Assembly (NCBI GenBank): GCA_051294375.1
Contig: CM119267.1
Location: forward strand, 7,420,683 to 7,484,682
From: Paraspadella gotoi
Lineage: Eukaryota > Animalia > Chaetognatha
Direction of reading: 5' to 3'
DNA: 64,000 nt
This document shows, piece after piece, positions 2,977 to 64,000 of the stretch. A program made the position numbers and the translations under genes. Position 1 is the first letter of the stretch; the number at the start of each line of letters is the position of its first letter. The notes beneath the pieces are model-generated. The model made no database searches and was not told the DNA's origin. It saw only the letters and a program-made list of their open reading frames with translations.

Positions 2977-5900
2977 TCACCCATGGTTCGTGCAGTTGAA
3001 TTGATGCTGCGGCGTCTGCTGCACTCCTTCAGCCGCCTGATATCCCGGTGGGAGGAGAGTGTGCCGAGCGGCCGGCAACTGAGTCCCGATGGGCGGGGCG
3101 GCGCCGTCGACGTCCACGCGAATGAGGAGAGCGTCGTTGGCGACGAACTCGACGTCGGGCTCCGGGTTGCGCAACTCGTCGAGGGAGATGAAGTCCTTGA
3201 AGCCGAAACCGCGAAGGCCGCGGAGATGAGTGGGACGTTGATAAGCTGAAACGTTAGGGAGGAGGACATACGTAAATATTAAAAAGCCACCAACCCAAGT
3301 CAAAGTTTAGTTAAAGCAATTCTCACCAGCGACGGTCGGCGTCGGGATCAGGAGTTGCGTAAAATCTCGAGATATTGGAGGTTTTTGGTGGCTGGGAGTG
3401 GAGGCGGCCGAAGAGGTCAACGACGACGTCCGTGGCCGCTGATCAAGGATGGTGATCATGACGTGGCCTTGGAAAGGCCAAGGAAGAAAGTCGTCGTATT
3501 CTCCCGGCATCATGTGGACGAAGATAGAGACGCACTTTCCGACGTACCCTTCGACGCCGTGAGGGTTGATCCTAGATCATGGAATCATTGCATTTTCTCA
3601 GCCTATCTGTGATTTTAACCAAGATGATCAAATATCCCCAGAACTCACCGCAAGCAAAGCTTATACCCCTGTGGAGAAGAATAAAAGGGCGGGCTGTATC
3701 TGGCGGGCACACCGCCCTTGGCCGCATCGTCCACCAGCTGCCAGAATGACTCGATCTTCCACAACAGTACGCCGTTGCAAAATCGCGCCTCCATATCGTC
3801 CAGGCGAGTCTGAGACGTTTGAAAAAAAAAATTTTGAAAATCGAAAAAAAAAAAAATTTCTCTGTCAAGACTTCTGACCGACCTTCAGTCTGCTGTTCTC
3901 GAGCCGCAGAGACTGCAGTTCGGTGATCTGCTGCTCCTTCTCCCGCAACTTGACCTCGGCGTCGCGCAGTCGACGCTCCGCGGCGGCGCCTCGTTGTTCT
4001 TGCGTCGCCAAGCGGTCGCCCAAACTCGAAACGTCGTCGCGGAACTTGTCCAACCGCGCCCGGTGGTAGTTGTCTACGAAATACGCGACAAAAACAAAGT
4101 TAAAGTCGTCTTAGTTTTCCAAATTGAATCAAACCTCATTTTGGTTTTACCATTGATTAGTCCGTTGAAGGTGTTGTTGGAGGAATGCAGAAGTTCGGGA
4201 TTTGAGGATGACGTTGATAGGATCTGACTGTCGTTTAGAGTCGGGTCTGGAAGACCGTTGGGGCGAGACCGTGGCAAAGTGGAGCCTGTGACTTTTCCGG
4301 GGATTACACCACCGTTGGTGAAATCCTTCAACTGATGCCCGAGAGGGTCGACCTCAGTCGCTTCTCCGCCGCAGGTAACGTCACTGAACAACGCTGCGGC
4401 GCCGTGGGGCTCGCGGGACTGGAGCTGAGAAGTTAAGGAACTGCTCAAAAACCATTTTTCTCACCCCAATGGTCTGACTTTCTTTTAAGCTTACCTGAAG
4501 CGAGAGCTGCAGGCGGGCGACCTCTTCTATGAGGTGTTGGACTTCGGCGAGAGACTCGGGCCTCGCCGATGATGCCACTCCCTGCATCTCTTCCTTCAGC
4601 CGCGCCACCCCTCGGCACAGCAGCAGCATGTGATCGACAACGTTTTCCTTGGCGTGGGAAGCCATGTCTCGACGCGCGGCGACCGCGGGACAACCGACGG
4701 CGGAAAAATCGCAGCGAATCTCTTCGGAGGCGCACGATCCCGTCGCGTGGGTGGAAGAGGTCATCTCGTCGTGAGAACCAGCTTGCCTGAAGAGGTCGAA
4801 AATGGTAAGTCGAAACTTAAATCGAGAGGAGAATTAATGCGTTCCTCCCATTTCACCTGCAGTGACGACAATTCGTGAGTCTTTTCGGGCAATGGCTAAG
4901 AAGATGATCCGTCAACTGCGGCAACGAAATAAGTTTCCCACAAAAGTTGGGACAAGGCTCCGGAGTGTACGTGCACTCTAACTTGTGTTCCTCGACCGAA
5001 CGGATCGTCAACTCCAGCCGACACCCGTACACGTGATTAGGGCATTTAACCTGCAGTAGACATTTTAACTGGCAGCTTGACAGAATTTATCCAATTACCC
5101 AACAATACTGTTACAAGCCAACCTTCAGTCCCAAAATTTCCCTTTTAGCAAAGGTATCCGGATATATATGAGACTGTTGGATCTTAACGTTGTCCATCGG
5201 GCAAGTTGGTTGACCTAAAAATAAAATTTCACAATATCTAATCATACAAGTACGTATATTGTATCAATTAAGCAATAAGCATTTATTGGAATTTAAAGAA
5301 TTTATACCTCTACTGATCCAATTTTGAATGCAGGAACGACAGAATCGATGGCCACACTCTGTCTGACACGGTTCCTTTAAACACAAATGACAGATGGGGC
5401 ATTCGAATCGACTCTCCAGCGGATCCAAGAAGTCGTAGTCGTATCCTTCGTCAAATTTGACCGCTGAAGGAGATAAAATATTTTCAAAAATTATTTTGCT
5501 GACTAATATTATTAGTAATAATGATCTCTCGAATCGTTTATTTTTTTTTTAGCTTTATTTTCTCTTCTTATCAATTTAAAGAAAGGAAATAAAAACCAAT
5601 ATTACTATTGCAATATGCAAATGAGGTTTGATGACAGAGATTAAGTTCGTATGTCTAATATTGTCTATCGTCTACTGGGAATTAATGGAAGTTAAGCGAA
5701 AAAGGTTTATACCCGACGAAGACGAAGAGGGACTGCCGAGCATTCCGTTGGCGAGATTCGATGACGTGACGTTTCCGGGGACAATGGCGGGTGTGCTACC
5801 AGAAGTGGAGATCAATGATTGAGCCAGATAAACGGGTGATGGTCCTAATAGAAAGAAACAAATGTAATTAACAATATAATAATCAGAATTAGCAAAAACG

Positions 5901-6306
5901 CAAATATTACTGACCGGTAGAGGCGGCATCGAAATTGATAATGGCATTGGTTGGAGGAAAAGGAAGCGACGTGGTGGAACATAGGGTGTTGTTGTTGATA
6001 AACTGATGTTCTTGATTGGCCGGAATCATGGTTGGAAAGTTGCTGTTTGCATAGGCATTCATAGAATTACAATATTTCCCCTGGTCTAATTATTAAGTAT
6101 TTTCTGAACATCCACGCAAGCCAAACCAACCTGTTCATCGCCGAGTGCAGCGCCGGGGACGCTGGCAGGGAGGAGCCGTTGGGCCCGAGGGAGGAGAGGC
6201 TGGCACCAGAGGAGGGGTGACGAAGTCGCGTCCCAGCGTCCAAGGTGCCAGGAGAAACGCTCCCTTGGTAAGACTCCGGTACAAACATCGCCGATCTTCC
6301 TTCCAT
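2977..6306 (-). CDS. TRAF6: TNF receptor-associated factor 6-like (RING, TRAF zinc fingers, coiled coil, MATH); ~12 exons; 5' exon boundary approximate
   Basis: The exon at ~5309-5464 encodes [41 protein letters not shown] (TRAF6-type RING). It continues PTCPMDN...[19 protein letters not shown]. The MATH domain reads CNGVLLWKI...[16 protein letters not shown]...[21 protein letters not shown]...GFGFKDFI. Introns are GT-AG. Confidence 0.9.
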
Positions 6307-6674
6307 CCGGGAACGTGGGAGGAGAGGGTGGGACGTGAACGGCCCACGAGACTCGGAATTCAATATATGACGAAATACGAAAATCAAAGGGAATATTCGT
6401 TACTTTTTTTTACAAACTTAGCGGCTTTTTAAGGCATCGTTATTTTCTTCTAATTCCTTCGCAACTTTTGATATAGGGACGATTATATCGAATTCATATC
6501 GATAACTTTCCATTTAAATTCAGATTTAAATGTTTTTTTTTTTAAAAATCGTTGATAACGCAGTTTTTTTTCCGCTGTCATCAATCAAGGCAGGAAGCTA
6601 TGGTCATAGATTTAATTTTATATCATCAACAAATCTATAAAAAAATAGGTATGTGATAAAATAAAACAAAAACG

Positions 6675-8627
6675 TTAAGCAGCGTGAAATTTTTCAACGT
6701 CTCTCCGCATTACTTTCCTCCCACAGGAAAAACACTCAACGCCGACTTTGAAGTTGGCATTATCGAGACACGAACGACACATTAGGTGTCGGCACGAAAG
6801 TCTGTACGCGGAACCGAAAAGGACACCGTCGCACGCGACGCAGACAACCGACGGTGATCCCTGTCCTGTGCCCGTTCGTCGCTTGGCAGAGGCCAGAATT
6901 TTGGCTAAGGCTTCGTCTAAACTATCTTTGACTCGATCCTCGTGCCCAAGTTTTTCCGCAGATTTCTTCCTTTTTCTTTCCGTAGAACTCCTTTTCGGCA
7001 CCGACGATCCTTTCATCAGAAGTTGGTCCTCGTCGAGAGAGGGCGCTTTTGAGCCGCGTCGGTCGGCCGGAAGGGAGTGGGAAAGCGGCGCCGAAAGAGA
7101 GCGATCGCTGTTTCTTCTGCCCAAAGTTCGAGGGAGAGAGTGATCATTCGAACGAAGAACAAGGAAAGAATCGATCCGAGATTTTAAACCTAGAATAAAT
7201 CACATGTACTCGTTGTACCAACTTCATATTTACAAATTAATTGTGATGAACGAATTAAAAACTGACTGGCATTAGGTAGGGGTTTTGACAGGGCCGAATA
7301 GGCCAAGTTGGTGAATGGATCGCTGGGTGGACGGCCCCACTTGGCCTCTTCCTCGTTATATTTTTCCAAGGTTGAGAGATCGATGTTATGACCTGAGAAA
7401 GATTCAACCGAAAAGATTCCGCACGGATTTTACTAGTACAACAAGCATCTCATAGTTTTTAACTTATCTGTAAAGTATTACACTACGTAAATTAACCATA
7501 TTTAATTATTTAATATTTATGCACAACAAGCACCTTTCTGCTAATTATAAACTAAATTTAAAGTACTCAGTGCTACTTAAATTATTTAATAATACTAAAA
7601 TAATGCAGAGTGAGTGACGACTGATAGACCAAAGGAAAGTACTCGAGGCGCAACTCAAAACTCACCGGACGGTAGCAGCATGGGAATGGTCATAACTTGA
7701 TAAGTTAACGAGTCGAGAAATTCTGGTTCAGGCTCGAAACCTTCGGCAACATTCATATCGCTTTGACGATCGTCCTTAACGGCTTCCTCGATGTCTTCAG
7801 TACCATTTTCCAGTCCCGCTTCGTCGTCCGCCGACAAACGTTGCGAAGCTTCATTGATTGCAGATCTATTTCGAGGTTAATGATGAATAAAAGTTTAACC
7901 TCCGACCCTTGCATAGCACTGAGCCTCTCCTCACTCAAAAAGGACTTACCTCGCGCATTCGTCAATCAAATTCCAATCAGGTACGCCGAAGACTCTTAAT
8001 CCCCGCAACCCAGGCACTGAAGACCCCTTCGTCCTGAAGATCCTTATCCTCAAGCAATCTACACTCTCGGTGGCTCTCGTGCAACCATGTCGCAGTTCGC
8101 GAACGTCAGCCGTCCAAAGACGGCGCGAGACCCGCTTCCCGTTGGCGAAGCGAAGTATGGGGGGTGCGGCGTCGGCGTCGGCGGCCGTTGTTCGAGCGAG
8201 CCGACGAAAAGTTAAAGTCTTTAGAGATTCAATCGTCGAGGGTCGTCGAAGTCGAGAAGACGAGTGCTGAGCGCGCCCGTCCACGCATTTGAGTTCGTCG
8301 TCGTCGTGGAAGGTTGCGGTAAAAACCTCAAAGCCGACGGAGACTTGAGAGCCCACGGAGGTGAAAAACTCAAGACGATGGAGGGAGAAAGGGAATCCAA
8401 AGTCTACGAAGACGTCTACGGGAGGCTGAGAAAAAAAATGTTTATAGACATTCGGATTAGTGTAATAACAATTTTTTTAATGAGCAACCGCAACAAACCT
8501 TGACAAAACGCTCAGCGAGAAAGCCCCGCGCATCAAAGACGCGTTCCACCTCTTGTCCGTCAAAGGAGACGGCGCTGCTGAAGACTCGTTTCATTTTTGT
8601 AGCATCAGAAAGTCTGTTGAGATCCAT
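6675..8627 (-). CDS. UBOX5: U-box and RING domain E3 ligase (RNF37/UBOX5); 5 exons
   Basis: N-terminus SFDGQEVE...GFLAERFVK|PPV. U-box PEFLDSLTYQVMTIPMLLPSG|HNIDLSTLEKYNEEEAKWGRPPSDPFT. C-terminal RING CVAC...CRHLMCRSC...CFSC. Confidence 0.88.
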
Positions 8628-8990
8628 GATCACTCCCCAGTCTTCACTCCTCTCTCTCAGAAACGCGCAAAAAGGTGTCCCCGTCGGAATCTGTCCAATG
8701 AGCGGGGAAAGAGAAGAGTGACCTCCATCCAAATTTTTTAACTTATCGCTGGGAGAGAAAAAAGTTTGTTTTTTTTAAATCTAAAATTTATAACGAACAA
8801 TGACTAGCCAAGATCTTAACCTTTCTTCGAAAACGGTTAGTGGAAATCGGAGATCAACGTGAATTGAAGCCAAAAAGCAGCAAACTGGTAGCGGAATCAA
8901 CAATAAATACAGGATTGTACAATCTATAGAATAAAGTTCTTCGATTTTGTAATATAAAACCATTCATTCAAAATGGTGAACAGCATAAGT

Positions 8991-11016: not shown

Positions 11017-11679
11017 TCATTGTTCTAGTCTTAGATCCGTTTCGTCCGAATCGCTGATTAGTTCTTCGCTCCTTATGGATGGCGATGGAATGAATCCACA
11101 ATTCCTAATTGGCCAAAACTTTAGAAAGACTTTGCCCAAAACAAGACCCAAAGGAATCGGTCCGTGATCACGGGAATCCAAAGACTTTTCTTTGTTGTCT
11201 CCTTCGATCCAAATGTGACCTCTGTAAAACCGAAAAAAAAAAACAAACCAAAAACAACAAAAACATTGAAAACAGAACTCCGATGTTGCCAATATATTTT
11301 ACCTGGGCACCCACGGCTTCATATCTTTCATGTTGGCAATATTTTCTCCTTCCAGTTTCATCACTCGTTTAACTAAAAATTCTCTTGGTTCTTGCGGATC
11401 TCGCAAAAGGACAACATCGTTTTTCTTCACATCGTTCACGAACCTTTGAGTTAAAAAAAATTCAGTAGTTTAAAATATGAAAATTAAATAACACGATTAA
11501 AAATAAGAAGATGTGAAGAACATGTACAACCTGTGAACTAACACCCAATCTCCATCGTTGATAGATGGAAGCATAGATTCTCCGTCACAGGCGGCTACGG
11601 TGACCACGTGATTCATGAAACAACTTCCGCCAAAATATAAGCAAGCTCCCCATGCACAAAATGGACGCAACTTATTCAT
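11017..11679 (-). CDS. IMMP1L: Mitochondrial inner membrane protease subunit (IMP1-like, peptidase S26); 3 exons
   Basis: CDGESMLPSI (catalytic Ser), FLVKRV (catalytic Lys), and VPRGHIWIEGDNKEKSLDSRDHGPIPLGLVLGKVFLKFWP. Confidence 0.85.
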
Positions 11680-11933: not shown

Positions 11934-12825
11934 CTACAACCCCAGTTTTTTATTTCTTAGCATCTGAACCTTCGCCTTCTTCCCGATCGATTCACTCGGT
12001 CTCTGTCTCTCCATCGGCCTTTTTTCGCTCTTCTCCCTATTTTCCGATTTTGGCGAATCGTTGCTGCTCTCGGCAGAACTCCCGTCGCCGGAAATCGGGG
12101 GGTCGGCCTTCGCGTCGTTCGATGTCGAGTCCCGCTTCTCTTTTTTTCTTAAGGCGCCGACTCGACAGAACGCTGAGTCAATCTCGGATTCGTTCTCCAA
12201 ATCGTCGTCGGGTTTAAAGAGACGCGTCGCAAGGATCTTCCTCGACACCTTCGCCCCCGAGAGTCGATAATCCTCGATCTCGGCGTCCTTGGCGGCGACG
12301 ACGCTCAAGAGCAGGCTCTTCTGCGCTTGCAACGCCGCACAGGTTCTTAAGAGAGGATCGACGAGCAAGTCGAGAAAGGAGTCGTCGCTCTGCCTCGCCG
12401 CCTCGAATTCCCACACAAAATTGATTCGGCCGCCAACCTTGACACGAGTCTTGCACTGTCGTCGATAAACAAAATTATAAATGAAATACATAAAGACCTA
12501 CTGAAAATCCACACCTCACTTTATAAATAGCTTCATCATCGTCGAAGAATTCCTCGATCTTCGCCAGCGGAGATCCGTCTCGAAAAGCGCAAACGCATTT
12601 TTCAATGTTGTCCAAAAGATGTCGATCCGACTCGACATCCAAATGTTCGTTCAAGTCAGCGTTGGCGTCTTTCATGGAAGCAACGCTCGTCCTTCCGACG
12701 AAAACTCCTTTTAAGTCGCTGAAACAGACGACGTAGCCGTGATCAGGGTCGGAGGCGAATTTAACCAAGGTCATTTTCCTGTCCGCTGATACATTTTGCC
12801 AATGTACACGCCGCAGCTTTTCCAT
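11934..12825 (-). CDS. NHEJ1: XLF/Cernunnos non-homologous end-joining factor; 2 exons
   Basis: Head domain GYVVCFSDLKGV...LNEHL. Stalk LVDPLL...KDAEIEDYRLSGAKVSRKILATRLF matches the XLF KDLEIQDY..SGA signature. Basic C-terminal Ku-binding-like tail RNKKLGL. Confidence 0.88.
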
Positions 12826-13774: not shown

Positions 13775-16080
13775 TCACATTTTTTCCAATGGAGTCAGCC
13801 CCAGCAATTCCATTCCTTGAGCTAGTACGTGTTTGGCGCATCGGAAGAGAACGAGTCTCGATGTTCCAAGATCCGTGTTGACAAATGCTTTGACGGGCAT
13901 TGTTCTCCAGGCTTTGTTGCTGAGGTGCATAATTTCGTAAAGATAATGGACCAGAACCGCGGGTTCGTGCTCGTCTCGAGATTGCTTCAAAATATCGTCG
14001 AACGCCGCCAATCCCTGAAGTCAGTTTTAATTTTCTTTGTATGACGAAACAAAATTCATAAATGAATAAATCAGAAATATTGACGAGCCACCGCGCGTAA
14101 GCTTCTGCCTCTGACCTGAGCCAATCTGACAGCCTCGTCATTAGCGACGAGGTTATGGGCCGCATCCCGCCCGTCCATAGCTGGCGAACCAAAATTTCTT
14201 TGCAGCGAGCAGAGGCGCGCGTGGGCGTACTGCAACGTGACGCCGCTATGGGTCTTAAAGTTCAACGCCGCCTTCCAGTCAAACTTGTAATTAGCGGTCC
14301 TGCGTTTCTCCAAATCTTGTACGATGATAGCCCCAACGGCTAATCGTTCTGACACCTAACGGCAAAGTTGAAAGTCGAAAAATGAAATGATTTTGTTGAC
14401 TAAATATAAAAAAACCGTGAGAGAAAGTCCCGCACCTCATCGCGATTTTCGACCTTTGTGTTCGGAGACGAGTCAAGACTTTCCCGGACTCGTTTAAAAG
14501 CTTCTTCCAAAAGTTCATCCAGGGAAACTACGTTACCTTTCCTCGTACTCAATCCTGATCGGAGAAAGTAGAATCGCGTCATTTGCCTCCGACAACGACA
14601 ACAAAAATCAGGACTCGCCTATCACGTGACCAAAAGGTAAGTGTTGAATAATAGGAGAACCCTTCTCCTTCCACTCGGGATGCATCAATTTTAAAGTTTC
14701 GGTCAGGTTTTCGAAGTGAAACTTTTGCGCGTCGCCGACCAGATAGAACATTTTGTGGAACTGAAGAGAGGAGAGCCGTTCCTCCGCCGCCATCAAGTCG
14801 CGGGTCAAATAGAGGGACGACCCGTCGCTCTTAGCGATCGGCGCCGGCTGACGGCCCGAGGCGAATTCGACGATCAACGTTCCTGAGGACGAAAACTTAT
14901 CTCAACGAAAAAATAAATCAAAATACTGATGCGTCTGCGTCGACTAAACTTCTCCGCCCCACCAATCCATATCCGACCTTCCATTCCCTCCTTGTCGGAA
15001 ACTCGTACAAAGTTGTATTTTCGTTTCAACTCCCTCAAAAACTCTGAGCTTCTCCGTCCGTAATCGGACTCTCCGACGACGACGTCGAACTCGACGCCGA
15101 GTTTCTCGTAGACCCGCTTCAGTTCGGCGAGGGAAAGGCTTCGCAGGGCGGCCCAAAGTCTCAGCGCCTCCTCCTCCCCGTTCTCCATTCGAGAGAAAAA
15201 AGCGAGGGCGCGCCGCTTGACGTTTTCGTCGCGTTCCGCCTCGGCGTTGATGCGGACGTAAACGTCGAGAAGGTCGGCGAGCGGCCGGTCAGATGCCGCG
15301 ATCGCCGCCTCCACGTCGCCCAGAGGCTCGGCGCCGACGGCCAAGAGGCCGAACTGAGTTCCCCAATCCCCGAGATAATTGATCCTCGTCACTTCGTCAC
15401 CCAAAAATGAGTTGAGTTTCGAGAGGCAATTGCCTAAGATCGTTGACCGAAGGTGGCCGACGTGAAAGGGCTTGGCGATATTGGGAGAGCTGTACTCGAA
15501 AACGATTCGCTCAGGAATCGCGGGCTTAAAAACTTCATCGGCATATCGGCGGGCGTGGAGGGCACTGAAATGCCCGTATCGATTTTTGGGAGATAAAATG
15601 TCGTCGATGACGTTGGCCACGAGGAGATGCTTGTCGTATCGGAACAACAAAGACGAGTCCTCGTCGCCGAGCGGGTCGCCCGAGGCCAACTCGACTCCTT
15701 CGGAGACGAAAGCATCGAGATTTGCCGAGACGAGTCGCCGAAGTTCGACTCCCGGCGAAGACGACGAACCCTCCTCCTCCAGTAACACCTTCGTCTCGAG
15801 GAGACGATCGGCATCGATGGATAATTGCGCCAAGTTAGCCGGTTCATTGCGCTTCGCCTTTCTGGCAAGCAATATGAGTTCAAAATTGCATTGTAAACAA
15901 TATAGGTCAATGGTTAAAATGCTTTTAAGGGGCCCACCCTGCGGTGCCGAGGCGAACGATGCGAACCAGTGATGCAAGATTATCCTGGGAAAAGTTGGGA
16001 CCCGGACGCAGAGGGGAAGACGCTGAGTGGAAGGAATCGATAATGGCGCCAGCGACTTTTTGTCGCAACGAAGAAATCAT
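13775..16080 (-). CDS. RARS2: Mitochondrial arginyl-tRNA synthetase; 6 exons, one GC-AG intron (14555-14618)
   Basis: EYSSPNIAKPFHVGHLRSTILGN, RINYLGDWGTQFGLL, KSDGSSLYLTRDL, GLSTRKG, GVTLQYAHARLCSL and C-terminal GMELLGLTPLEKM. Confidence 0.95.
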
Positions 16081-35809: not shown

Positions 35810-36984
35810 TCAAGACTGAAATTGAACTTGAGAAATATCAGACTGAGCCGGATAAGCAGCAGTGTAAATCTGTGAAGTGATTTGCTGATGTTGCGGAACT
35901 AATTCTTGATGACCGGATGTAGGGCCTAAAAATACAAACGTCAGATTAAAAAAAATTTTTTAAATCAGGAATTGCTTGGGATTCGCTCAAAGCGCCTACC
36001 ACCTTGTATCTCACCAGGAATGATGCTGATGTTCGGTCCTCCTGTCGTCACGAAAGCTGCGACGGTTCCACCAACGTTTTCCGAATTTGTCGTTTCCAAG
36101 GAAACGAGCCTTTCTTCCTCGTCCTCGTACAATTCGCGACGTCTCAAGCCACTTTTTTCCCCTTCACAAGTGAAAATGTCGCCTTAGTACAATTCGTTGT
36201 AACAAGGTTTCTTTTCAACAATCAATGACCTTTAATTGACTCTCGGTATTTGGAGAGAAAGATCTTGAGCGGCTCCACATAAGAATCGAATCCCAAAGTG
36301 GACATCGCGACCAAAAGATCTTCTCCGTTAATCGTCTTTCTTTTTTCTTGTTGGCATCTGTCCGACGCCTCCGACGTAATGAAGGAAACGAATTCCGACA
36401 CACATTCCTAACGGACAGTTCCCGTTCGTCGGAGTATTGGGAATACAATTTTCCCCCAATAATACTTTTCATATGATTTATTTTATTTTATGCACAATAT
36501 CTCGGCTATATTAAATTCATGTCACTCAAATTTAGTTGAGATAAGTATTAAGCTTTAACTTTTACCTGCACACACTCTTTGGCGTCTTTGGCGATTTTCG
36601 CGTTCTCGGGAATACTGTTTTTCATAATCTTGGCCACGTTGGCGATTGGAAGAAACCTATATGTAATTATGTATATGGAATCGAGGGCTCGGTGAATCCA
36701 GGGCGTGTTTCACAGCGAGTGAGATGGAAAAAGAACCTGTCTTGGTCTCTAATTTGTTCGATACCCTCTTCCGATTCTCCGTCCCCGTCTTCGATCTGAC
36801 CGGAAACTGCGTCGGACTCCGTCACGAGGTATTGAGGATCTTGCATGTTTTCTGGAAGAATTTGATATTCTCCTGGAAAATGGTTACGCCAGTTAATCTC
36901 ATTGACAAATGTTAGGTACAGCGAAGATTTACATACGATAATTCTTTTTGTTTTGGTACCTTCATTGTTTGAAACAGTCGCCAT
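35810..36984 (-). CDS. NFYB: Nuclear transcription factor Y subunit beta; 6 exons
   Basis: [17 protein letters not shown]...[58 protein letters not shown]. Confidence 0.95.
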
Positions 36985-38176: not shown

Positions 38177-43095
<4,919 letters not shown>

Positions 43096-51292: not shown

Positions 51293-52989
<1,697 letters not shown>

Positions 52990-53440: not shown

Positions 53441-55882
53441 CTAAAAAATGCTAGTTCCAAGCGGTTTTCTTCTTCGCGGTCTCTTCGTCTTGGACGATTC
53501 TCCATCGTCGTTCCCTTCATCGTCGTCGCCGACGACCTTCTTGGCGGCGTCGAGAGACCAGATGTGTTCCGGAGTTCCGATCGAAGCCGTCTTGTCCTTC
53601 CCCTTCCCATGGCGGCAGCTCTTCCAGATTTTGGCGTTGATCTCCTCGATGGCGTAGCCCAGGGGCACGAATATTCTCCCGCAGGGTTGGCACTCGACGC
53701 GCTTCAACTTCTCCCGCTCCTCCTTTTTGCGAATGGCGCCGCCGAGGATGGGAAAGAGCGGGTCCTTGATGTTCTTCTTTCTTTCCTCGTCCTTCTCCCG
53801 CTGGACCTGGGAAAAGGAGAGGAAGGCCGAGTCGTTGGCGCCGGGGTTGACGGCGCCGGACGCCATCTTTTGTTTCTTGTTTAGCTCCGAGTCCAGCTCG
53901 CGTTCCAAGTCGTCAAGATCGAGGTAGGGATCGGCGGCGCCGTTGGCGTCGGTCGATTCTTTGGCCGAAGCCGTCGTCGCTGTCTTTGACTGAAGTTTTT
54001 GATTAATTAGGGCTTTTTGTCTCTCGAAATCGCTTTTGCTTTTCGAAGGAGGAGCCGAGACTGGCCGCTCTGGAACTGGCCGTTCCCAGGCAGGCTTCTC
54101 GGGAGGCGGCTGTTCGGGCGTTCCCAAAAGCGAGGCGTCCGATTCGCCATCAGACTCGCCGAACATTTCGACAATGACCGGATGCTGAGCTTTTTTCCGC
54201 CGTTTTATGAGTGGAGCCGGACGATCAGGCGTCGAAAAGAGCTGCGACGGCGACGGGACGGAATTTAAGGCACTCGACGATTTAAGCGAGGGACTCTTCG
54301 ACGACGCCATTCCCAGTTGAGCTTTGGAAAACCTCGAAGAAGTAGACGAATCGGATGCAGCCGCGGATCCGTCGTTGAGAAGCTTGAGAGCTTGGGTCTC
54401 GCTGAGATCATAGACGAATTCGTCTTGCGGCTTCGTCCCTGGAGCGCCCCCACCACTGCTCCGTCTGGCGTCTTTTTCTTCCCGTGGCCTGACGCCCAGC
54501 TTCTCCTGCTGCGCAGATTTGATCGATTCCTCCAACGCTCGTCGGATCTGATCTTCCTCCTCTTCCTCAATCTTTTTCCAACGCTTGGCCTGCAGCGCCT
54601 GCGCTTTCTCCGCCGATGATTGGGTGAACATTTGGGTGACGGTCGCCTGACGAAGACCGGACTTGGGGTCCCAGGCGGAGAGACCGTTGGGCGACGAGGC
54701 CTTTCGCTTTTTCGATTCGCTCGTCGTAGATGACGACGAGGGCGAGGAGGTCTTCTTCCTTTCCAGCCAAGGCTCGTTGGAGGCAACGTCGGACTCTTCA
54801 GCTTCTCGCGCCGATCGTTTCTTCTTCTTCAGCTTTCTGCTGTCGCAGGAGGAGGGTCTTAATGGAGATTCGCCGATTTCCTCGTCGGATTCTTCGGTCG
54901 TCGCGGTTTTCGGAACGGACGCCGGCCTCTCGGGGACTTTGCTCACGACGGACGCCAGAGTTTTTCTTCCGTTTAATCCCCGATCTTCTTCTTTCGGTTC
55001 GTCTCCTTCGTCGTCACCGTCACCGTCGTCACAGTCGTTGTCACAGTCGTTGTCGCCGTCGCCGTCGCCCTCACCGCCGCCTTCCACACCGCCCCCGTCC
55101 CAAAGCGCGGTATCAGTTGGGTCCAAGATTCCCAGAGTCTCCGGGATCGTGATCTTTGGTCGTTTTAAAGGTGGTGGTAATTTTGGGCTGGAATCGACGA
55201 GAACGGCGGGATTTTTTTCAGGGTCACCTTTATCTCCAGGAATTGTGGCAACAGCGACTGCGGGAAGCGCTGGAAAGGCTTCCCCGAGAGCGCGGAACTT
55301 TTCCGGGTCGTCGCGAGACACCCACTCGGCGATTTCGCGTTTCTCCCTCTCGCTTTCCTTAAACTTACGATCGAGGTCGTCCTTTTCCCGCCTTAGCCTC
55401 TCCATCTCTTTCCCCTGATCAGAGTTTTTCTCGGTCAGGCGCGCCAAGACCTCATCCTTTTCCATGAGACGATTCTGAATGGCGTTGATCTCCTCGGACA
55501 TCTTTTCGTATTCCGCGAGGGACTCGTCGAGCACCCGGCGCTTTTTTTCTGAGGCGGCGAGGGCGGCGCGTTCATCCTCAAGCTCCTTCGACAAGTCAAC
55601 GATACGGTCTGAAAGTCGACGGGTCTCCGCCTCAAACTCGTCGCGCTGCGTCTGCGCCTCATCGCGCTCCGTTCGCATTTTATCGCGCTCCGTACGGGCA
55701 TCATCGCGCTCAGTTAGTGTCTTGGCCCAGCTTTCGAGAAGGCGGGGACCAAGGCCAAACACGCCGGCGACGAGGCCCAAGAGGGCGGGACTAGTCTTTT
55801 CAAATTCGTCGGCGATTCGCCTGAAGTCCTCAAAGTTTTCGGCCGCTTCCAGTCCGACTGACAGCTCCTGCAGGGCGGCCAT
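53441..55882 (-). CDS. RBBP8: CtIP/Sae2/Ctp1-like DNA end-resection factor (intronless; N-terminal coiled coil, C-terminal Sae2 domain)
   Basis: C-terminal IRKKEEREKLKRVECQPC...SCRHG...GTPEHIW parallels human VRKKEERRKLLGHTCKEC...CSRHR...NTPENFW. Long N-terminal heptad region and a disordered middle. The start codon is inferred. Confidence 0.72.
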   Translation of the reverse strand: MAALQELSVGLEAAENFEDFRRIADEFEKTSPALLGLVAGVFGLGPRLLESWAKTLTERDDARTERDKMRTERDEAQTQRDEFEAETRRLSDRIVDLSKELEDERAALAASEKKRRVLDESLAEYEKMSEEINAIQNRLMEKDEVLARLTEKNSDQGKEMERLRREKDDLDRKFKESEREKREIAEWVSRDDPEKFRALGEAFPALPAVAVATIPGDKGDPEKNPAVLVDSSPKLPPPLKRPKITIPETLGILDPTDTALWDGGGVEGGGEGDGDGDNDCDNDCDDGDGDDEGDEPKEEDRGLNGRKTLASVVSKVPERPASVPKTATTEESDEEIGESPLRPSSCDSRKLKKKKRSAREAEESDVASNEPWLERKKTSSPSSSSTTSESKKRKASSPNGLSAWDPKSGLRQATVTQMFTQSSAEKAQALQAKRWKKIEEEEEDQIRRALEESIKSAQQEKLGVRPREEKDARRSSGGGAPGTKPQDEFVYDLSETQALKLLNDGSAAASDSSTSSRFSKAQLGMASSKSPSLKSSSALNSVPSPSQLFSTPDRPAPLIKRRKKAQHPVIVEMFGESDGESDASLLGTPEQPPPEKPAWERPVPERPVSAPPSKSKSDFERQKALINQKLQSKTATTASAKESTDANGAADPYLDLDDLERELDSELNKKQKMASGAVNPGANDSAFLSFSQVQREKDEERKKNIKDPLFPILGGAIRKKEEREKLKRVECQPCGRIFVPLGYAIEEINAKIWKSCRHGKGKDKTASIGTPEHIWSLDAAKKVVGDDDEGNDDGESSKTKRPRRRKPLGTSIF

Positions 55883-56129: not shown

Positions 56130-58420
56130 TCATTCTGTCATTCGGGCGACTCGAGAGGATTTGATCGGAGCGGTGGAGTCTGTTGTCGTTAATGCCAATT
56201 TGACGCTTTTCCTGGAAAACGTCTTCAAAATTGGCGGAAGGGTTTTCGACTCGAAAGCCTCAACGGTCGACTCGGCCTTCGACGAAGCGTCGACTGTATA
56301 AATTTTTTCGGGTGACAAAGTTTGAGTAAAATTTGGGTCATCTTTAAAACGATTCAATGTAGACATTTCTTCAGATTCTTCAAGGATTTTCGCGCCGTTT
56401 GTCGAAAATGGTTCCGCTATTTGCGAGCTCGTTTGTGCCGTCACCTCCATTCCCGATGGATCGGACGCGGCCGGCTTAAAAACTGGGTCTCCACAACTTA
56501 TTTTACTCTTTTCCGCCGTAGCCGATGACGCCGCCGAGGTCGACGAGACCGCAGCAGCCGAAGATGCCGCCGTAGCCGACGACCCCTCCACAGCCGCTGA
56601 AACCGACGACGCCGCTTCCACGGCCGGCACAGGCGCCGCAGCCGACGCTGCATTACGAGACTTTGCCTGAACTATGTCTACAGACGACCATTCCGTGGAC
56701 GCCGACGAAGTTTCGACAGAAGGCGCCGCGATGACGCGGATTTGAGCGCTAATGACGGGAGGGAGCGGCGTAGCAACTATCGGGCGTTGCGCCGGAGCTA
56801 ATTCGGCGTTTCCCTCAGACGGTTCATCTTTGTCATTTTCCTGCGCCCGAATTTCTTCAGTCTTTTTCTTGAGCAGCTCCAGGAGTCGCTTCTGCTCATC
56901 GGAACCCGGAGCCAGAAATGAATAGGAAGTGGCGCCGGTGAGGTCGAACTGCGGGGGAGGGACGGATGAGGTAGTTTTTTGGCGGCGGTGGCGATCGTGG
57001 CGATCGTCACGATCTCGACGACGATGTTCGTCGCTTTTGTGACGCTTGTGGTCTTTACGTTTGTCGTTGATCTCGTTAATGTCGAGGGCTTTGATCGAAC
57101 CACTCCGGCTCTTATGGCTATGGTGGTGATGGTGGTCGTGACGATGATGATGACGACGTCGGCGTTCCTCCTTTTTTCTTTTCGCCCTCTCTTCCTCCGT
57201 CTCCCTTTTCTTCGCTTTGAGCTTCTCCTCGACCCGCTTCTTCACCTCCTCCTCCTTCCTCTTCTCCTCCGACTCTTTCTTCGACTCCATCTTTCCCTTG
57301 AGCTTTTCAAGGAGGATCCTCTTTTTCTCCTCGGCCCTTCGCTTCGACTCTTCCTCGTATCTCTTCCTCTTCTCCGCGTTTAGTTTCTTCTCTTCTTCAG
57401 AGATATTCTCCTCCCGCTTCTCCTTTCTCTCTTTCTTCTGCTCCTTCGCTTCGCTCTTCTTTCTCTCCGTCTCCTTTTTCTCAAAGACAGAGGCGCCGTA
57501 TTCCTTGAGTATTCGCTCCAGACCGGGATCGAGTTTGGACGGAGGTTTTTTCTCTCCCTCTTTTTTTTTCGATTTATCCTTGTTTCGTCCGGAATCATCT
57601 TCCGATTTTCTATTTGGCTCTTTTCTCGATTTATCCTTGTGGCGTTCGCTTCCGGAACAACTGTCAGATTTTCTCTCTCGCTCCCTTTTCGATTTATCCT
57701 TGCTTGGTTCGCGTCCGGAACAATCTTTAGAATGCCTCCGAGACTTTTCGAGTTTTTCTTTTTTTACTTTTTCTCTCTCCGACGATTGTTCTTTTGTGTC
57801 GGGCACGCTCAAGCGAGAACGGAGAGCATCCGCGCCTCTATCGGCGGCCGGCGAAAAACATTTTTTATCGTTTTGGTCCGAGCCATTAAAATTTGGTTCG
57901 CAGTCAAGATCAGGCTTTCCTGAGAGTCGAAGAGATTTGCTTTCCGGCTCGGGCAACGCGGGCGCGTCTGTGAAATTACAAAAGTGAGCAAAATTTAGAA
58001 AAACGCCTAAATTAAACCAATAAAACCTATACGAAAAAACGATTCACCTCGACGATAATTCCTGGCGTCATCGTCGGATCCGTGGCCATTTTTTAAACTC
58101 GTCTCCCCCGAAAGGGCAGAGTCTGAAGCAATTTCCGAAGCTTTTGTCGTTGACGTTGTCTCGACGCAAACGGTATTCGTCCCCTCAATCGGCGTAGAAC
58201 TTATTTTTTTGAGAACAGCGTCAAATCCTCGACGAAATTCCGTATCATTGGAGTGGAGAGTGAAGATCTGCACAAAGGTGTTATCGCATGATGAAGACAA
58301 CCGTCACCCTAACAATTTCTCTCCTCGCTTTACCCTGTGGAATTCTTGCGCCATCTGCTCCTGAAAAACGAGATCTTGGTCATCGTCTTTTTCCTCGCCT
58401 GGAGTCGAAGGTATTTCCAT
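56130..58420 (-). CDS. Uncharacterised Lys/Glu-rich, His-tract, low-complexity protein; 3 exons
   Basis: A 608-codon ORF joins in phase to exons ~58049-58267 and ~58334-58420 through GT-AG introns. Coding-like composition, no recognisable domain. Confidence 0.7.
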
Positions 58421-58874: not shown

Positions 58875-61608
58875 TCAATACTTGTTGATGCCAAAAAGTC
58901 GGACTCGGTGAAATTGTGGCAATTTTGGGAGTAACACCAAAAGAAGCGTCGACGTGTTGACGATGAAGTGGTTTAAGTCGTAATTTGAAAAGAAGCTAGG
59001 AAAAAAAAAGATAAAAAATTGTGAAATATTTCCCTAAGAACAAGCGAATAGCTGTATTGCCCCAAACATATCGTGATAATTTGTTAATCTGTGGGATGAT
59101 GTTTCTAATAGTATATAATATTTTATAGTCTTCACTGACAAAGTATTTCATTCTTTTTTGGCGCATAATTCACATATTTATCAACATTAAACGTTTCATC
59201 GCTCGTGAGATAATGTTGGTTGTTGTTTAGTTGAATATTATGAGTAGTTATAGTACACATTGTTCCAATTCATACATTTGGGTAGCAAAATTATGACTGC
59301 ATTAGCAGTTTCCCACCACATGCATCTTAATCCCAAGCAATTTTACTACTTTAGGCGGTTTTTCAAAAAATGGAAAAACCTGAGATCAGTTTAAAATTCT
59401 CAAAGAGCCTGTTGTTTCCTGAAGTAAAAATTAAGTATATATATTTTTTTTAAAGAAACTTTTGTCATCGGGGGTGACCTATATAAAAAGTAATAATCCT
59501 TTGTCTTTGGCCTCCACGTGAATAAAATTTTCGGTCAAAGCAGAGTTTAAGGTTTAAAATAATTATTTATGTTCTACCCCTATTGTTTTTAAACCTTCGT
59601 ACTTTTCCTGTCTTTCAGCCTATATATAAAGTTTTTTGTTACTATTATCATTAATCAACAGAAGAGTAAAATGTTCTTAATTTGTAAAATTTTAGTTTTT
59701 TAAGATCCATTTTTTTAAAATTTAACAAATACAATTTAACAAATACAAATACAATACAGCCGATGTACAACCGATCTCACCTCGCTAAGAAGAATAAAAC
59801 GATTGGAACGACTGTGAGAAATTTTTTAGTAGCGGTGAATTGCATTCCATGGTCCAATTGCTCCCACTGCGTGAGATACCTCGCTTTTCCTTCATCAAAA
59901 GGCATCCAAGGCGTACCTTGGCGGAGTGAAAAATTCATGAAATAATGTAAACCCAAACGGGAAGCAACATGTCCATTAGGGTGGAGTGATGAAAAGATTG
60001 AGACATGTTACAGTATTTATTGCTGCGTCTGTATATGAAACTGATAAAAGTTAAGCCCTTTATAAAATTTTTAAGCACAACAACAACAGAAATTGTGTTT
60101 TCTTTATAGTAATATCCTTAGCAAAAAAAAAAAGAATGTTAGTTTCAACAACGATTTGTTTATTTGTCAACGGACATGTTTCGACTTTGTTTTCAAGTCA
60201 TCAGCGTTTTTACAGTACAGTAATGTCCTTATAAATTCATAATTTTTTTTTTATTTTCAAGAACAGATTCAGATTCGACAGAAAAAAAGAAAAACAACGT
60301 TTGTAAAATGTTATATGATATTGTAATGTTAAAGCTTCGAAAAGGGAAAATATGTTTTAAAAAGTTGAAAATTTTAACCTTTTCTTCCAATTTTGACACT
60401 GAAAAAATTAAAATTTTCGTTAAGTCTCTCTGGGGCGTGGGTTCGAATCCTACCACTGCCACCACATTTAAGGAAAAACTCATGGATTTCTAGGGACGAA
60501 ATCAGGAAGACATTTTATTCTAAGAATAAAGGTGACGGTGAGACACGCGCAGGAGACATAATCAATGCTACTGAAACAAGAACAAACTAAATATTTATAT
60601 CTAGGGAAGAGGATCGGCGACGTGGGTAAAATTTACAGTTCCAATGATCCTGCAAGCTGATTGGTCGATTCCGGTTCCATGCTTGACCAATCAGGATTCG
60701 GCGATTCAATTTCCTGCGGAGATCGCCCGAGCCTCCGATCCGATTTGATTATGGTGGCTAGATACTCCTGCGATAACATATTTTTTATTTTTAGTTTAAT
60801 TTACACCTCTCCTAATTTTTACTGCAAATAGTCCAGGGGTGAATAACTCAAAGTTATCGTTATAATTAGCTAAGATTTCGTAAAAAGATGAAAGAAAATT
60901 TGCTCTATTGCTCAACTGAAGGAAAATAATCAATTCAAAAATTTTGCGCCGTCTCGATTTTTTTTAAATTTTGCTTCTAAAACTGCTATTTCTTTTTTAA
61001 TTTGTTTTATTTTTTGTCCATATAATCGACTAACATACCCCCACCTATTGATGTTATTTCAGGGAGGTATTTAAAAAACATAGGAGTTATCACATAAAAA
61101 TGTAAATACCAACGAAAGGAAAGGAAAATTAATACTTATATTTTTATGAGGAATCTGAATCATTAATAAAAATTAAAAAAAAAACATTTTAAAAATGTAT
61201 TATTTTATAAGGATATTACTACAAATGTATTTTAAGTTCTGTTTTGATCCCTTCAGAATTAATACAAAACATTTCTTGTACTTCATAATTATATCACGTA
61301 TAATTATCATTGTAACATATTTCAAATAAATTTTTTATTCTCGAGAGCTCCACTCTAATGTCCATCCTCTCTCCTACAAAAGGTGTGAGAACGTTTTTTT
61401 TACCTTTTGTCATGTGCAGAAGGAGAAAATTGCCTACATTGTGAATAGTATTGGTTAAAGTCCAGACCCAGGCGTAGCTGAGCCAAGGATTAACGAAAAA
61501 GAGTAGGTGTAAGATGCCGGTAATGAAAATATAAGTGGCCCACGTTCCTTTGGCGTTGAGCCAACAGTGATTTGGATTGGAACTACCAGTTCCTTCGCCT
61601 ACAATCAT
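58875..61608 (-). CDS. ORMDL: ORM1-like protein (regulator of serine palmitoyltransferase); 3 exons
   Basis: MIVG...NPNHCWLNAKGTW, AWVWTLTNTIHN, KGTPW...GKARYLTQWEQLDHGMQFTATKKFLTVVP and LPKLPQFHRVRLFGINKY*. Confidence 0.95.
60423..60464 (+). pseudogene. 3' half of a tRNA-Leu (variable arm, T arm, acceptor strand) ending in CCA; 5' half absent
   Basis: AGTCTCTCTGGGGCGTGGGTTCGAATCCTACCACTGCCA-CCA matches the 3' half of eukaryotic tRNA-Leu (…AGTCTCTTCGGAGGCGTGGGTTCGAATCCCACCGCTGCCA). The upstream sequence is AT-rich with no D or anticodon arm. Confidence 0.75.
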
Positions 61609-63904
61609 GTTTCTTAGTTATTTCAGTTTCCTTTAAAAATAGACGAATCTGCAGGCTGATTTGGGTGTAGGCAGACTAAGATGGACTGTCACTATAAAAG
61701 GCTCCTAACGAATGGTCCGTTTTTATTCATTCATTTTTTCATTACAATCTACACTCATTTTTCTTCAGATGCACAACAGAAATAAATACGGTCGTGGCAT
61801 AGAAGTTTGAAAAAGTTAAAAATTCTAGAGAAAAAGTATAAAAAATTGAAAGGATTGTGTTACAATTTAAGAATTGACCAAACGCTTATAAACTCAGCTT
61901 TTCATTATTATGTTATCAACTTATTCACGTGAGCTAGATGCGTAAGCTTTCATGAAAAACGTAACAGTTTTTGCGACACCCAAAAATTTTCTACACGACC
62001 CCATCCCTAATATAATTTTTAAGCTTCCAGTTCATAGATATAAAAATCTTTGGTGATAATTGTAATTTAATTTATTAGTAAATTATGAATCTTAACAATA
62101 AAAAAATGTTTTAAACCTATTTCCAGTTATTATTGTTATTACCATCCTGCTAATCAAGCGAATTTTTACAGTGACAATCCGACTTGAAGGCTCAGTTTCC
62201 CAAATTTTCTTTTTTTCTTCTCAGATGAATGAAAAATTAAAAAGTCAGCGAACAATCATCGTCTCTGTTCGTGGTTTTTTACCTGTGATAAAATTCACGG
62301 TATCAAAAAACGGAAAAAAAAGAAAATCGGCGTAGTTTTTTAATACTTGAAATTCAAAACTCAAAATTCGGGTTTGGAATGAAAATGACATTTGAAATCA
62401 ACGAGTTCCACTGGACAGAATTGTATAATGACAATTTTTTGTTTCACAAAAAAATTTAAAACTACTCTTTTTCGAGGGGAATTCGTCCAATACCAAAATA
62501 ACCAAAATATTAAGGTTTAAAATAAAACAAGGCAAATAATCGATTAAAAATAAAAAATTAAATTAATTTTTTGCGAAAAAACCTCTAAACAAGCTTTCGA
62601 ACATTCGACTAAGTATCACAGCGAAAAAAAAGTGATAACCGGTAAGTAATGAATGCATCAATTAAAAAAAACCGAACGCCTTTGTCTTATCCGAAAGAAT
62701 TTGTGCAATATACGTAGACAATTACGATGACTGGCGTGAAAATATCACCAATATTTTAAAGAGAAAAGGCATTCAAAACAAAAAGCAGATTGTAATAAAA
62801 AAAATAAATCAAGGTAGCAGCAACATTTTTTCTTGTTAGCGCCGGAAACTCGAGGCAAAATCACTGACTTAAAAATAAATGTCAACAAAATTCTCTTTAA
62901 TGCTGAAATTTTCAAAAAGCTAAACGTGAAACTCAAAGCATAAAAAAGCTCACTGGCGTGAACCCCGGTTTTCCCGGTATCCCCGTTTCGGGACAATTAA
63001 ATCTGGATTTTCCTTGGTGGGTCGAAAACTATTAGAGTAAAGCCTGAACTAAAGCGCAAAGAAGCACGATCGGCGAGTACAAGTATTTAAAAGTTTGGCA
63101 ACAAGATTATCAGAAAGCGAATTGTACCTAAGGCTAGGAAGCGTATTAGCCAACAAGCTTGCCCGCGATCATACTTCGTCGTACTTAGCAACTGGGGATG
63201 TTGAATTACATCATATTCATATGGCAAACAGCAAATGCTATAAAAATACTGCCACGAGAACAAAAGAAACATTCCTTTTACCCTAATAACTATCGGTAAA
63301 CTCAACCAATTATATTCCTATTCTACAATGCATTTTTGGCAAATGCGATCCGATAACCAGTAATTTAATCTGACTTAGTAAACCCAATGCATGTAAATTG
63401 TGTCCAATTTCTGGTGTCATCTAAAAAGTATAAAATTTATAAAAACGAATTGGTTTTTTTTTCTTTTGTGATGAGTTATGCATATTTATCCTTTGATGCT
63501 ACGAAAATGCGAAATACTGTGGTTTCTTTCTTTCGGTGTTTTTCCATTTTCGTTTTCTCTGTGGAAAAAAAAGAAAATATTTTTTTTAAGTGCTCAATGA
63601 ACCAAAATTTACCCTGATACTTTCCTTTACAGCGTCGACAAATTTTAAAAATGAATTTTAAACATTAAAAAAAAGCTTTTTACTTTACAGGTCTTTTATT
63701 CATGTATAATTGTATATTGTAAACAAGTTATAAATTCTAATTAACGAACACATATATACGACTCTTAATGATGTTCCTATGCGTATATTCGTATTATTTT
63801 CCTGATGAAGCTTAGAACGGTGGAGAACGGGGAAAAAAAGTACCTCAATGAAAAATTGAAGAATCGAAGCTGAATCGACAACGACAACTGTATAGTTAAC
63901 TTAC

Positions 63905-64000
63905 CTTCCAGAGAAGGCCGGCTGACGGAGCAGCGCCTTTGCAGAATACTTGATGTTGAGGAAAGTGCCGATTTCGTCGATGGCGGCGATGGCTTCCTCG
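63905..64000 (-). CDS. Partial coding exon of an upstream gene running off the window edge
   Basis: GC-rich open frame EEAIAAIDEIGTFLNIKYSAKALLRQPAFSGR ending at a strong AG|GTAAGT donor. Downstream exons not resolved. Confidence 0.55.

What the first reader, a model, noticed from the sequence alone, without database searches (positions are those of the whole stretch)
2977..64000. 22 consecutive genes on one strand over 61 kb: candidate giant operon or directional gene cluster in an animal
Seen: every gene I could trace is on the minus strand (chance about 2^-21 if orientations were independent). Approximate stop-to-start gaps are very short: METTL21D->XLF 70 nt, RARS2->METTL21D 110, IMMP1L->IVD 180, Ku80->RARS2 195, OLA1->TSC1 220, HDDC2->SLC36 225, unknown->CtIP 250, XLF->IMMP1L 255, TSC1->p38 300. 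The genes are functionally mixed housekeeping, mitochondrial and repair genes. Established: this content and spacing typify SL trans-spliced operons in nematodes, tunicates and flatworms, which usually hold only a few genes. Inference: one very long polycistronic unit, or several abutting ones with possible breaks at the ~1.1-1.2 kb gaps before MGAT5 and NF-YB, approaching kinetoplastid-style organisation.
Basis: partly seen in the sequence, partly recalled or inferred. Interest (0 to 1): 0.85.

Follow-up and report, generated by a model that had tools for sequence, protein, structure and literature searches.

The report
22-gene one-strand operon chain
Twenty-two unrelated genes (one only partly in view) lie on one strand over 61 kb of what is likely an arrow-worm genome, and spliced RNA assemblies run through the gaps of a nine-gene block, so the stretch is likely a chain of long operons cut into single messages by leader splicing, which would equal or exceed the longest operon published for arrow worms.

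Summary
There are 21 complete gene models and one partial gene, all on the minus strand. No plus-strand ORF reached a Pfam cut-off (0 of 149). HMGB is nested in a p38 intron, so it is not head-to-tail. Five of 20 gaps exceed 600 nt.

RNA was laid only on 2701-22600. Cis-spliced contigs of run X1 cross 7 of the 8 gaps of the ABCC10-to-TRAF6 block (4 shown, 3 inferred). At the eighth, the IMMP1L contig's aligned part ends at an AG and 26-27 letters stay unaligned, as a spliced leader would; those letters were not displayed.

The arrow-worm label comes from earlier scan notes, not my own test. Leader splicing and operons of up to nine genes are published for arrow worms. A published Spadella BAC table has 14 of 14 non-transposon genes on one strand.

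Best reading: a chain of leader-resolved operons (blocks of 9 and 7 genes), probably a genome-wide trait. A single 61-kb unit is untested. The scan already noted 9- and 14-gene clusters elsewhere in this genome.

The parts
63486..64000 (-). 3' end of an unidentified gene (exon to about 63905, inferred last exon from about 63558)
   Evidence: best of six frames by coding score, GTAAGT donor; no family hit; inferred
58875..61608 (-). ORMDL, 153 aa, 3 exons
   Evidence: PF04061; model
56130..58420 (-). lineage-restricted 714-aa protein, 3 exons
   Evidence: model; one relative P0191, E 8.9e-28
53441..55882 (-). CtIP/RBBP8-like, 813 aa, one coding exon
   Evidence: model; SAE2 lead only, no Pfam SAE2 hit
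51293..52989 (-). thiolase (ACAT1-like), 421 aa
   Evidence: PF00108, PF02803
49256..50968 (-). OLA1/YchF GTPase, 399 aa
   Evidence: PF01926, PF06071
43398..49035 (-). TSC1/hamartin, 1165 aa
   Evidence: PF04388
38177..43095 (-). p38-type MAP kinase, 351 aa; last intron 41784-38306 holds HMGB
   Evidence: PF00069; single copy of the last exon
38987..39931 (-). HMGB, 194 aa, nested on the same strand in the p38 intron
   Evidence: PF00505; relatives 69-86% identical
40100..40980 (-). GC/CpG-richer, CT-repeat stretch upstream of HMGB; likely internal promoter and 5' UTR
   Evidence: composition, repeats; function inferred
35810..36984 (-). NF-YB, 230 aa
   Evidence: PF00808
34502..35205 (-). 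HD-domain protein (HDDC2-like), 186 aa
   Evidence: PF13023
30709..34276 (-). amino-acid transporter (SLC36-like), 481 aa
   Evidence: PF01490
25352..29575 (-). MGAT5, 797 aa
   Evidence: PF15024, PF15027
19660..24600 (-). ABCC10, 1533 aa; first gene of the RNA-bridged nine-gene block
   Evidence: named ABCC10 hits; contig record 5
16277..19268 (-). Ku80, 745 aa
   Evidence: PF02735, PF08785; joints
13775..16080 (-). arginyl-tRNA synthetase (RARS2-like), 629 aa
   Evidence: PF00750, PF05746
12895..13662 (-). METTL21D, 231 aa
   Evidence: PF10294; named hits
11934..12825 (-). XLF, 275 aa; strong unpaired acceptor 8 nt before the ATG, AATAAA 5 nt after the METTL21D stop
   Evidence: PF09302
11721..11723 (-). 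candidate trans-splice acceptor of IMMP1L (AG at 11723-11722)
   Evidence: aligned end of record 2 inferred from bin depth; 26-27 letters unaligned
11017..11679 (-). IMMP1L-like signal peptidase, 164 aa
   Evidence: PF10502
8991..10839 (-). acyl-CoA dehydrogenase (IVD-like), 482 aa
   Evidence: PF02771, PF02770, PF00441; joints
6675..8627 (-). UBOX5/RNF37-like, 481 aa
   Evidence: PF19318, weak U-box and RING
   Evidence: RING, zf-TRAF, MATH

Best explanation
All 22 genes lie on the minus strand, and the stretch is likely a chain of a few long operons: RNA polymerase likely reads through several unrelated housekeeping genes at once, introns are cis-spliced, and each gene is likely released as its own message by 3' cleavage of the upstream gene and spliced-leader addition at an unpaired AG before the next. 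Shown: strand, gaps, cis-splicing, and RNA contigs crossing gaps in the nine-gene block ABCC10-Ku80-RARS2-METTL21D-XLF-IMMP1L-IVD-UBOX5-TRAF6. Inferred: the leader at IMMP1L, a second seven-gene block ORMDL to p38 (gaps 220-454 nt), restarts of transcription at some of the five long gaps and at HMGB, and the arrow-worm identity.
For: Gap spacing: 15 of 20 gaps are 460 nt or less; under that limit the chains are 1, 7, 1, 2, 1 and 9 genes. RNA (run X1, listed as a guess of RNA): it is spliced; 16 of the 16 joints I could read match modelled introns (26 more joints were not displayed). Single contig pieces cross 4 of 8 gaps outright (UBOX5-TRAF6, IVD-UBOX5, METTL21D-XLF, ABCC10-Ku80). Three more (IMMP1L-IVD, RARS2-METTL21D, Ku80-RARS2) follow from contig length and depth; a five-contig model fits 16 of 30 depth bins within 0.5 and no bin falls short of it by more than 0.1. 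At XLF-IMMP1L, the XLF contig runs 226 of 254 nt, to 14 nt past an AG. The IMMP1L contig's aligned part ends at that AG (expected depth 129.6-129.9, observed 130; 138.2 if wholly genomic), leaving 26-27 of its 3360 letters unaligned. The gap has 7 AGs in 254 nt, so about 5% by chance. Published chaetognath leaders are about 36 nt (PMC2481426). Acceptor-like sites are modestly enriched before start codons (p 0.10, 0.026, 0.011 for three window sizes). Context: in Paraspadella about half of genes are trans-spliced and 18% lie in operons (PMC12460157). In Spadella BAC 35A21, 14 of 14 non-transposon annotated rows with an orientation are on one strand.
Against: No leader letters were seen: none of the 16 loose ends displayed is leader-like, and 41 were hidden. 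The depth bins holding the XLF, UBOX5 and TRAF6 starts show no extra contig (residual 0.2 or less), so no leader-joined contig stands there. TRAF6 has no good acceptor within 150 nt of its start (score 1.2). Acceptor enrichment over the opposite strand was not significant (p 0.07-0.08). The bin next to IMMP1L's has a residual equal to 17.5 letters at that contig's depth; if those letters belong to it, only about 9 are unaligned. Record 4 is 20 letters shorter than the model. The tool warns that a contig across two genes shows no single transcript. All RNA evidence is from one run of one study, and 12 of 20 gaps had no RNA test. My own tree did not place the organism.
Confidence: 0.6

Rival explanations
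1. One promoter upstream of the window drives a single polycistron of 21 or more genes over at least 61 kb, and the long gaps are simply long 3' UTRs.
For: No strand switch in 61 kb. The p38-NF-YB and NF-YB-HDDC2 gaps are uniformly AT-rich (23-32% GC) with no CpG-rich patch. The Spadella BAC shows one-strand order over about 120 kb.
Against: HMGB has a promoter-like upstream stretch, and the region before MGAT5 is GC/CpG-richer. The ABCC10 contig ends about 15 letters past its acceptor by length (also expected of a leader, so weak). No RNA test upstream of 22600.
Confidence: 0.15
2. Each gene has its own promoter inside the upstream gene's 3' end. Abutting or overlapping UTRs and ordinary read-through let the assembler chain separate messages, and the shared strand comes from genome compaction or replication bias.
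For: Contigs cannot show single transcripts. No leader letters were seen. Acceptor enrichment is weak and absent at TRAF6. Contig depth differs about fourfold along the block (55-211), though contig depth cannot rank genes.
Against: Gaps of 69 and 112 nt must also hold a 3' UTR and a 5' UTR. The 69-nt gap is AATAAA, a pyrimidine tract and the strongest acceptor, with no donor. The IMMP1L contig ends at an AG with unaligned letters. Independent orientation gives 0.005 such runs per genome.
Confidence: 0.2
3. The mature messages stay polycistronic (cis-spliced but not cut apart), and downstream frames are translated by leaky scanning or re-initiation, as in some green algae.
For: Spliced contigs cross the XLF, UBOX5 and TRAF6 acceptors with no side contig.
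Against: The IMMP1L contig is not joined to the XLF contig. The 36 listed members of six clusters of unnamed METTL21D relatives lie, where a length is given, on contigs of at most 1121 nt, single-gene size. Polycistronic mature mRNA of this length is unknown to me in animals (recalled).
Confidence: 0.05

Closest known systems
Chaetognath SL-resolved operons: Paraspadella gotoi (PMC12460157; abstract, section 5, passages of sections 9-11 and 19, three PDF supplements searched; the operon table xlsx was not readable) and Spadella cephaloptera RPS14-PCNA and BAC 35A21 (PMC2481426; passages and supplementary file 2)
   Same: Co-oriented, functionally mixed housekeeping genes with very short gaps; almost no spacer between one gene's 3' end and the next acceptor (3 nt in Spadella; overlap of about 14 nt inferred here at XLF-IMMP1L); cis-introns present.
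   Different: The longest published operon has nine genes under a rule of less than 250 bp between gene models. Here the RNA-bridged block has nine genes and the one-strand run has 22. The run includes signalling genes (p38, TSC1, TRAF), a class reported as depleted in Paraspadella operons, and a same-strand nested gene.
Tunicate operons, Ciona and Oikopleura (PMC4122922, 7 passages; PMC7986045, 12 of 29 passages)
   Same: Leader-resolved polycistrons, often with no intercistronic DNA (Ciona median 1 bp).
   Different: Mostly two genes; up to 11 reported for tunicates, and up to seven predicted in Ciona. No tunicate protein is named among the 120 best ABCC10 hits.
Parasitic flatworm operons (PMC12582326, 12 of 34 passages) and C. 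elegans operons (up to 8 genes, recalled)
   Same: Same-strand clusters with gaps of 300 bp or less; polycistronic precursors cause fused gene models.
   Different: Mostly two genes; the maximum candidate is nine. No operon-specific leader is reported in chaetognaths.
Kinetoplastid directional gene clusters (recalled; abstracts in the listing)
   Same: Long runs of co-directional, unrelated genes.
   Different: Those hold tens to hundreds of nearly intron-free genes, all leader-spliced and without gene promoters. Here there are 96 cis-introns and likely internal promoters.

Membership tests
SL-resolved animal operon | adjacent co-oriented genes with short spacing | tested here: met
   22 of 22 on one strand; 15 of 20 gaps 460 nt or less, 7 of 20 250 nt or less stop-to-start
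SL-resolved animal operon | RNA continuous across the intergenic gaps | tested here: inconclusive
   contigs cross 4 of 8 tested gaps directly, 3 by bookkeeping, and the eighth up to the acceptor; contigs are not single molecules; 12 gaps untested
SL-resolved animal operon | non-genomic leader joined at an unpaired AG of downstream genes | tested here: inconclusive
   26-27 unaligned letters at the AG before IMMP1L inferred; letters not displayed; no side contig at the XLF, UBOX5 or TRAF6 starts
SL-resolved animal operon | one upstream promoter, no start sites in the gaps | not testable with these tools
   needs CAGE or raw reads; only contigs were offered
Chaetognath operon (Paraspadella rule) | organism is a chaetognath | tested here: inconclusive
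   long unplaced branch; no tunicate, nematode or flatworm named among 120 ABCC10 hits; closest relatives unnamed; label from earlier notes
Chaetognath operon (Paraspadella rule) | less than 250 bp between gene models and at least one gene with a leader | tested here: inconclusive
   UTR ends unknown; on the stricter stop-to-start measure the longest chain is 4 genes at 250 nt and 9 at 400 nt
Kinetoplastid-type directional gene cluster | nearly intron-free genes | tested here: not met
   96 cis-introns in 21 genes
Kinetoplastid-type directional gene cluster | tens of co-directional genes as the genome-wide rule | tested here: inconclusive
   22 here; no genome held; Spadella BAC 14 of 14
Kinetoplastid-type directional gene cluster | leader on every mRNA; initiation only at cluster starts | not testable with these tools
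   HMGB upstream stretch looks promoter-like

The most novel reading that the evidence does not exclude
Arrow worms arrange their housekeeping genes in kinetoplastid-like directional clusters of 15-25 or more intron-containing genes read from very few promoters. This window would then be a polycistron of at least 20 genes, about twice the largest animal operon I found in print (11 genes), and hidden so far because a 250-bp rule cuts such units at long UTRs.
Probability: 0.2. Interest if true: 0.85.

Novelty: new variant of a known kind. Interest (0 to 1): 0.5.

Why it matters
The mechanism is known; the scale may not be. Published animal operons top out at 9-11 genes in the papers I read. If arrow-worm housekeeping genes form one-strand runs of 20 or more genes read from few promoters, an animal with normal introns has moved toward trypanosome-style transcription, where gene output is set mainly after transcription. 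That can be tested now with existing chaetognath long-read, ATAC and annotation data by dropping the 250-bp rule. The same-strand HMGB gene inside a p38 intron is also a natural test of how an intron is spliced when a nested gene is cleaved within it.

Tried and rejected
No whole genome is held, so genome-wide run lengths could not be computed. No listed holder is on record as RNA; X1 is taken as RNA because it is spliced. X2 and X3 gave only repeat-sized matches. RNA was laid on 2701-22600 only; the gaps upstream of ABCC10 remain open. A scan of metagenome contigs with an alignment of the METTL21D relatives, meant to find leader-bearing transcripts or neighbours, returned 12 loci at 26-40% identity that I did not use. 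ABCC10 trees on 38 of the 120 hits: the IQ-TREE run did not finish; FastTree gave a long branch without reliable placement, whose smallest starred set was with vertebrates and one unnamed row. An HMGB search gave 10 relatives with no taxon name. An automatic exon predictor over-spliced and was dropped; the models were set by hand and checked for open frames. K-mer enrichment in short gaps gave nothing that would survive multiple testing (best p 1.4e-4). AATAAA or ATTAAA is absent from 8 of 20 gaps, so poly(A) sites could not be placed. The partial gene was first searched in a wrong frame (results void); the right frame also found nothing. Eight literature searches found no report of a 20-gene animal operon or of directional clusters in arrow worms. 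The library lacks most subscription papers, and the Paraspadella operon table (xlsx) could not be read and may list these genes. Tandem duplication was rejected as the cause of the shared strand, because the identified genes belong to different families.
Full report
Observation. I read the whole window and built spliced models for 21 complete genes, each a stop-free frame from ATG to stop, with 96 introns of median 80 nt. A 22nd gene is cut by the window's end and rests on coding score and splice sites only. All are on the minus strand. Nineteen carry a Pfam family (150 of 261 minus-strand ORFs scanned). Names beyond the Pfam family are recalled, except ABCC10 and METTL21D, which have named hits. 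The CtIP label is a lead. The 714-aa protein has one relative. All 149 plus-strand ORFs of 70 aa or more gave no hit at a curated cut-off, and no coding-like plus-strand exon hides in gaps or introns.

Spacing and chance. Stop-to-start gaps in order from the partial gene are 1877, 454, 247, 451, 324, 220, 302, 1192, 604, 225, 1133, 751, 391, 196, 112, 69, 254, 177, 363 and 368 nt. Two tight blocks stand out: ORMDL to p38 (7 genes) and ABCC10 to TRAF6 (9 genes). Independent orientation predicts 0.005 runs of 22 per 22,072 genes. The published Paraspadella operon fraction raises this only to 0.06; a same-strand neighbour probability near 0.65 is needed for one per genome.

RNA across the gaps. 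One run, X1, holds 0.76 of the sampled words of 8501-18400. Laid on 2701-22600, its contigs skip introns: 16 of 16 readable joints match the models; 26 joints were hidden. The same contigs keep the intergenic DNA. Single pieces cross UBOX5-TRAF6 (6131-7187), IVD-UBOX5 (8499-9300), METTL21D-XLF (12520-13439) and ABCC10-Ku80 (19129-22600). Length bookkeeping puts record 1's upstream end at 7666, where record 2 begins, and record 3's end at 14978, where record 4 begins. This implies that IMMP1L-IVD, RARS2-METTL21D and Ku80-RARS2 are crossed too (record 4 is 20 letters short of the model, unexplained). A model with only these five contigs fits 16 of 30 depth bins within 0.5; the other 14 bins have surplus depth and none falls short by more than 0.1. 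Most contig breaks fall at splice junctions rather than gaps. Contigs are not single molecules, so this shows RNA over the gaps, not a nine-gene transcript.

A leader-like end. At XLF-IMMP1L the two contigs do not join. The XLF-side contig runs to 11708, 14 nt past an AG at 11723-11722. The IMMP1L contig has 3360 letters. Were it all genomic it would end at 11748 and give bin depth 138.2; the observed 130 fits an aligned end at 11721-11722 (129.6-129.9). That leaves 26-27 letters unaligned, starting at one of 7 AGs in a 254-nt gap. This is what a trans-spliced leader would give; chaetognath leaders are about 36 nt (PMC2481426). The letters themselves were not displayed. A surplus in the neighbouring bin could cut the figure to about 9, though that intron has no alternative splice site at the needed offset. 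By length, the ABCC10 contig ends 15 letters past its best acceptor (outside the laid stretch).

Results against. None of the 16 loose ends shown is leader-like (41 hidden). The bins holding the XLF, UBOX5 and TRAF6 starts have no side contig; assemblers can drop such short branches (recalled), so this is weak. Acceptor-like sites before the 21 start codons are only modestly enriched: p 0.10, 0.026 and 0.011 against intron and gap interiors for 60, 100 and 150 nt; p 0.07-0.08 against the opposite strand; shuffle p 0.14, 0.035 and 0.008. TRAF6 has none. The 12 gaps upstream of ABCC10 had no RNA test.

Organism. ABCC10's 120 best hits are 41-47% identical across Metazoa, with no named tunicate, nematode or flatworm. 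The tree leaves the window on a long, unplaced branch. Closer relatives exist only unnamed. Three earlier scan notes call this genome an arrow worm on nuclear ATP6, protein matches and lamins; I did not verify these. The same notes report a nine-gene and a 14-gene one-strand cluster elsewhere in this genome.

Mechanism. Most likely (0.6), transcription starts at a few promoters and runs through several genes. Introns are cis-spliced; each upstream message is cleaved at or just beside the next gene's unpaired AG, and a leader caps the downstream message. The 69-nt METTL21D-XLF gap shows the anatomy: AATAAA, a pyrimidine tract, the strongest acceptor of all gaps, and no donor. Restarts are likely at HMGB and some long gaps, but long gaps may be long UTRs: TRAF6's is about 1.4 kb, and two long gaps are uniformly AT-rich. 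The rivals are one 61-kb unit (0.15), separate promoters with abutting UTRs (0.2) and unresolved polycistronic mRNA (0.05).

What is known. In Paraspadella gotoi about half of genes are trans-spliced and 18% lie in operons defined as less than 250 bp apart; the longest has nine genes (PMC12460157; the operon table was unreadable; PDF supplements searched). In Spadella, 3 nt separate the RPS14 poly(A) site from the PCNA acceptor, and the authors remark that other BAC genes share one orientation (PMC2481426). In their Table S5, 14 of 14 non-transposon annotated rows with an orientation are on one strand over about 120 kb. I left out ten rows: four minus-strand rows (three labelled transposon, one unlabelled duplicate of g31), five plus-strand transposon, recombinase or unlabelled rows, and one without orientation; the table lists only models with a SwissProt match. 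Tunicate operons reach 11 genes (PMC4122922), Ciona predictions seven (PMC7986045) and flatworm candidates nine (PMC12582326). Eight searches found no report of longer animal operons or of directional clusters in arrow worms.

Verdict. The feature is real and far beyond chance. It works most likely like a chaetognath leader-resolved operon; membership is probable but not proven, since leader and promoter tests are inconclusive or unavailable. What may be new is the scale, probably a lineage-wide tendency to long one-strand clusters. New variant of a known kind; interest 0.5.

Noticed in passing
window 41784-38306 (minus): HMGB is nested on the same strand in the 3.5-kb last intron of p38, and p38's conserved last exon exists only beyond it. 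Full-length p38 mRNA must therefore be spliced across HMGB's 3' end.
   Followed up: partly
window 33735-33485 and 32975-32715 (minus), SLC36 intron 2: Two related copies of about 250 nt (86-89% identical in the matched parts) that fold into hairpins, with box C/D-like words (recalled). No Rfam match up to E 5 and no compensatory pairs in two sequences. Possibly an undescribed intronic RNA or a small mobile element.
   Followed up: partly
window about 60770-60420, ORMDL intron 1: CCAAT- and TATA-like words followed by a tRNA B-box-like fragment (read by eye). It may belong to the tRNA-promoter solo LTR family noted in e1-10587908.
   Followed up: no
window 33066-33232 and a second tract in an MGAT5 intron: Degenerate TTAGGG-like tracts in introns.
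   Followed up: no
window 1284-1541: 16-nt and 25-nt tandem arrays just past the inferred TRAF6 3' UTR end; likely a repeat element.
   Followed up: no
window 1-480 (plus): Possible plus-strand exons (104-aa ORF 171-482 and AG/GT signals). They may mark the convergent end of the run; no Pfam hit at cut-off.
   Followed up: partly
TSC1 48748, HDDC2 34707, SLC36 34014, RARS2 14618: 4 of 96 modelled introns have GC donors; none was among the RNA joints displayed.
   Followed up: no
window 11717, 8728, 29603: Short upstream ORFs lie between a candidate acceptor and the main ATG of IMMP1L, UBOX5 and MGAT5.
   Followed up: no
window 55882-53441, 19268-16277, 12825-11934: Three double-strand-break repair genes (CtIP-like, Ku80, XLF) fall within the run; no test of whether this exceeds chance.
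   Followed up: no
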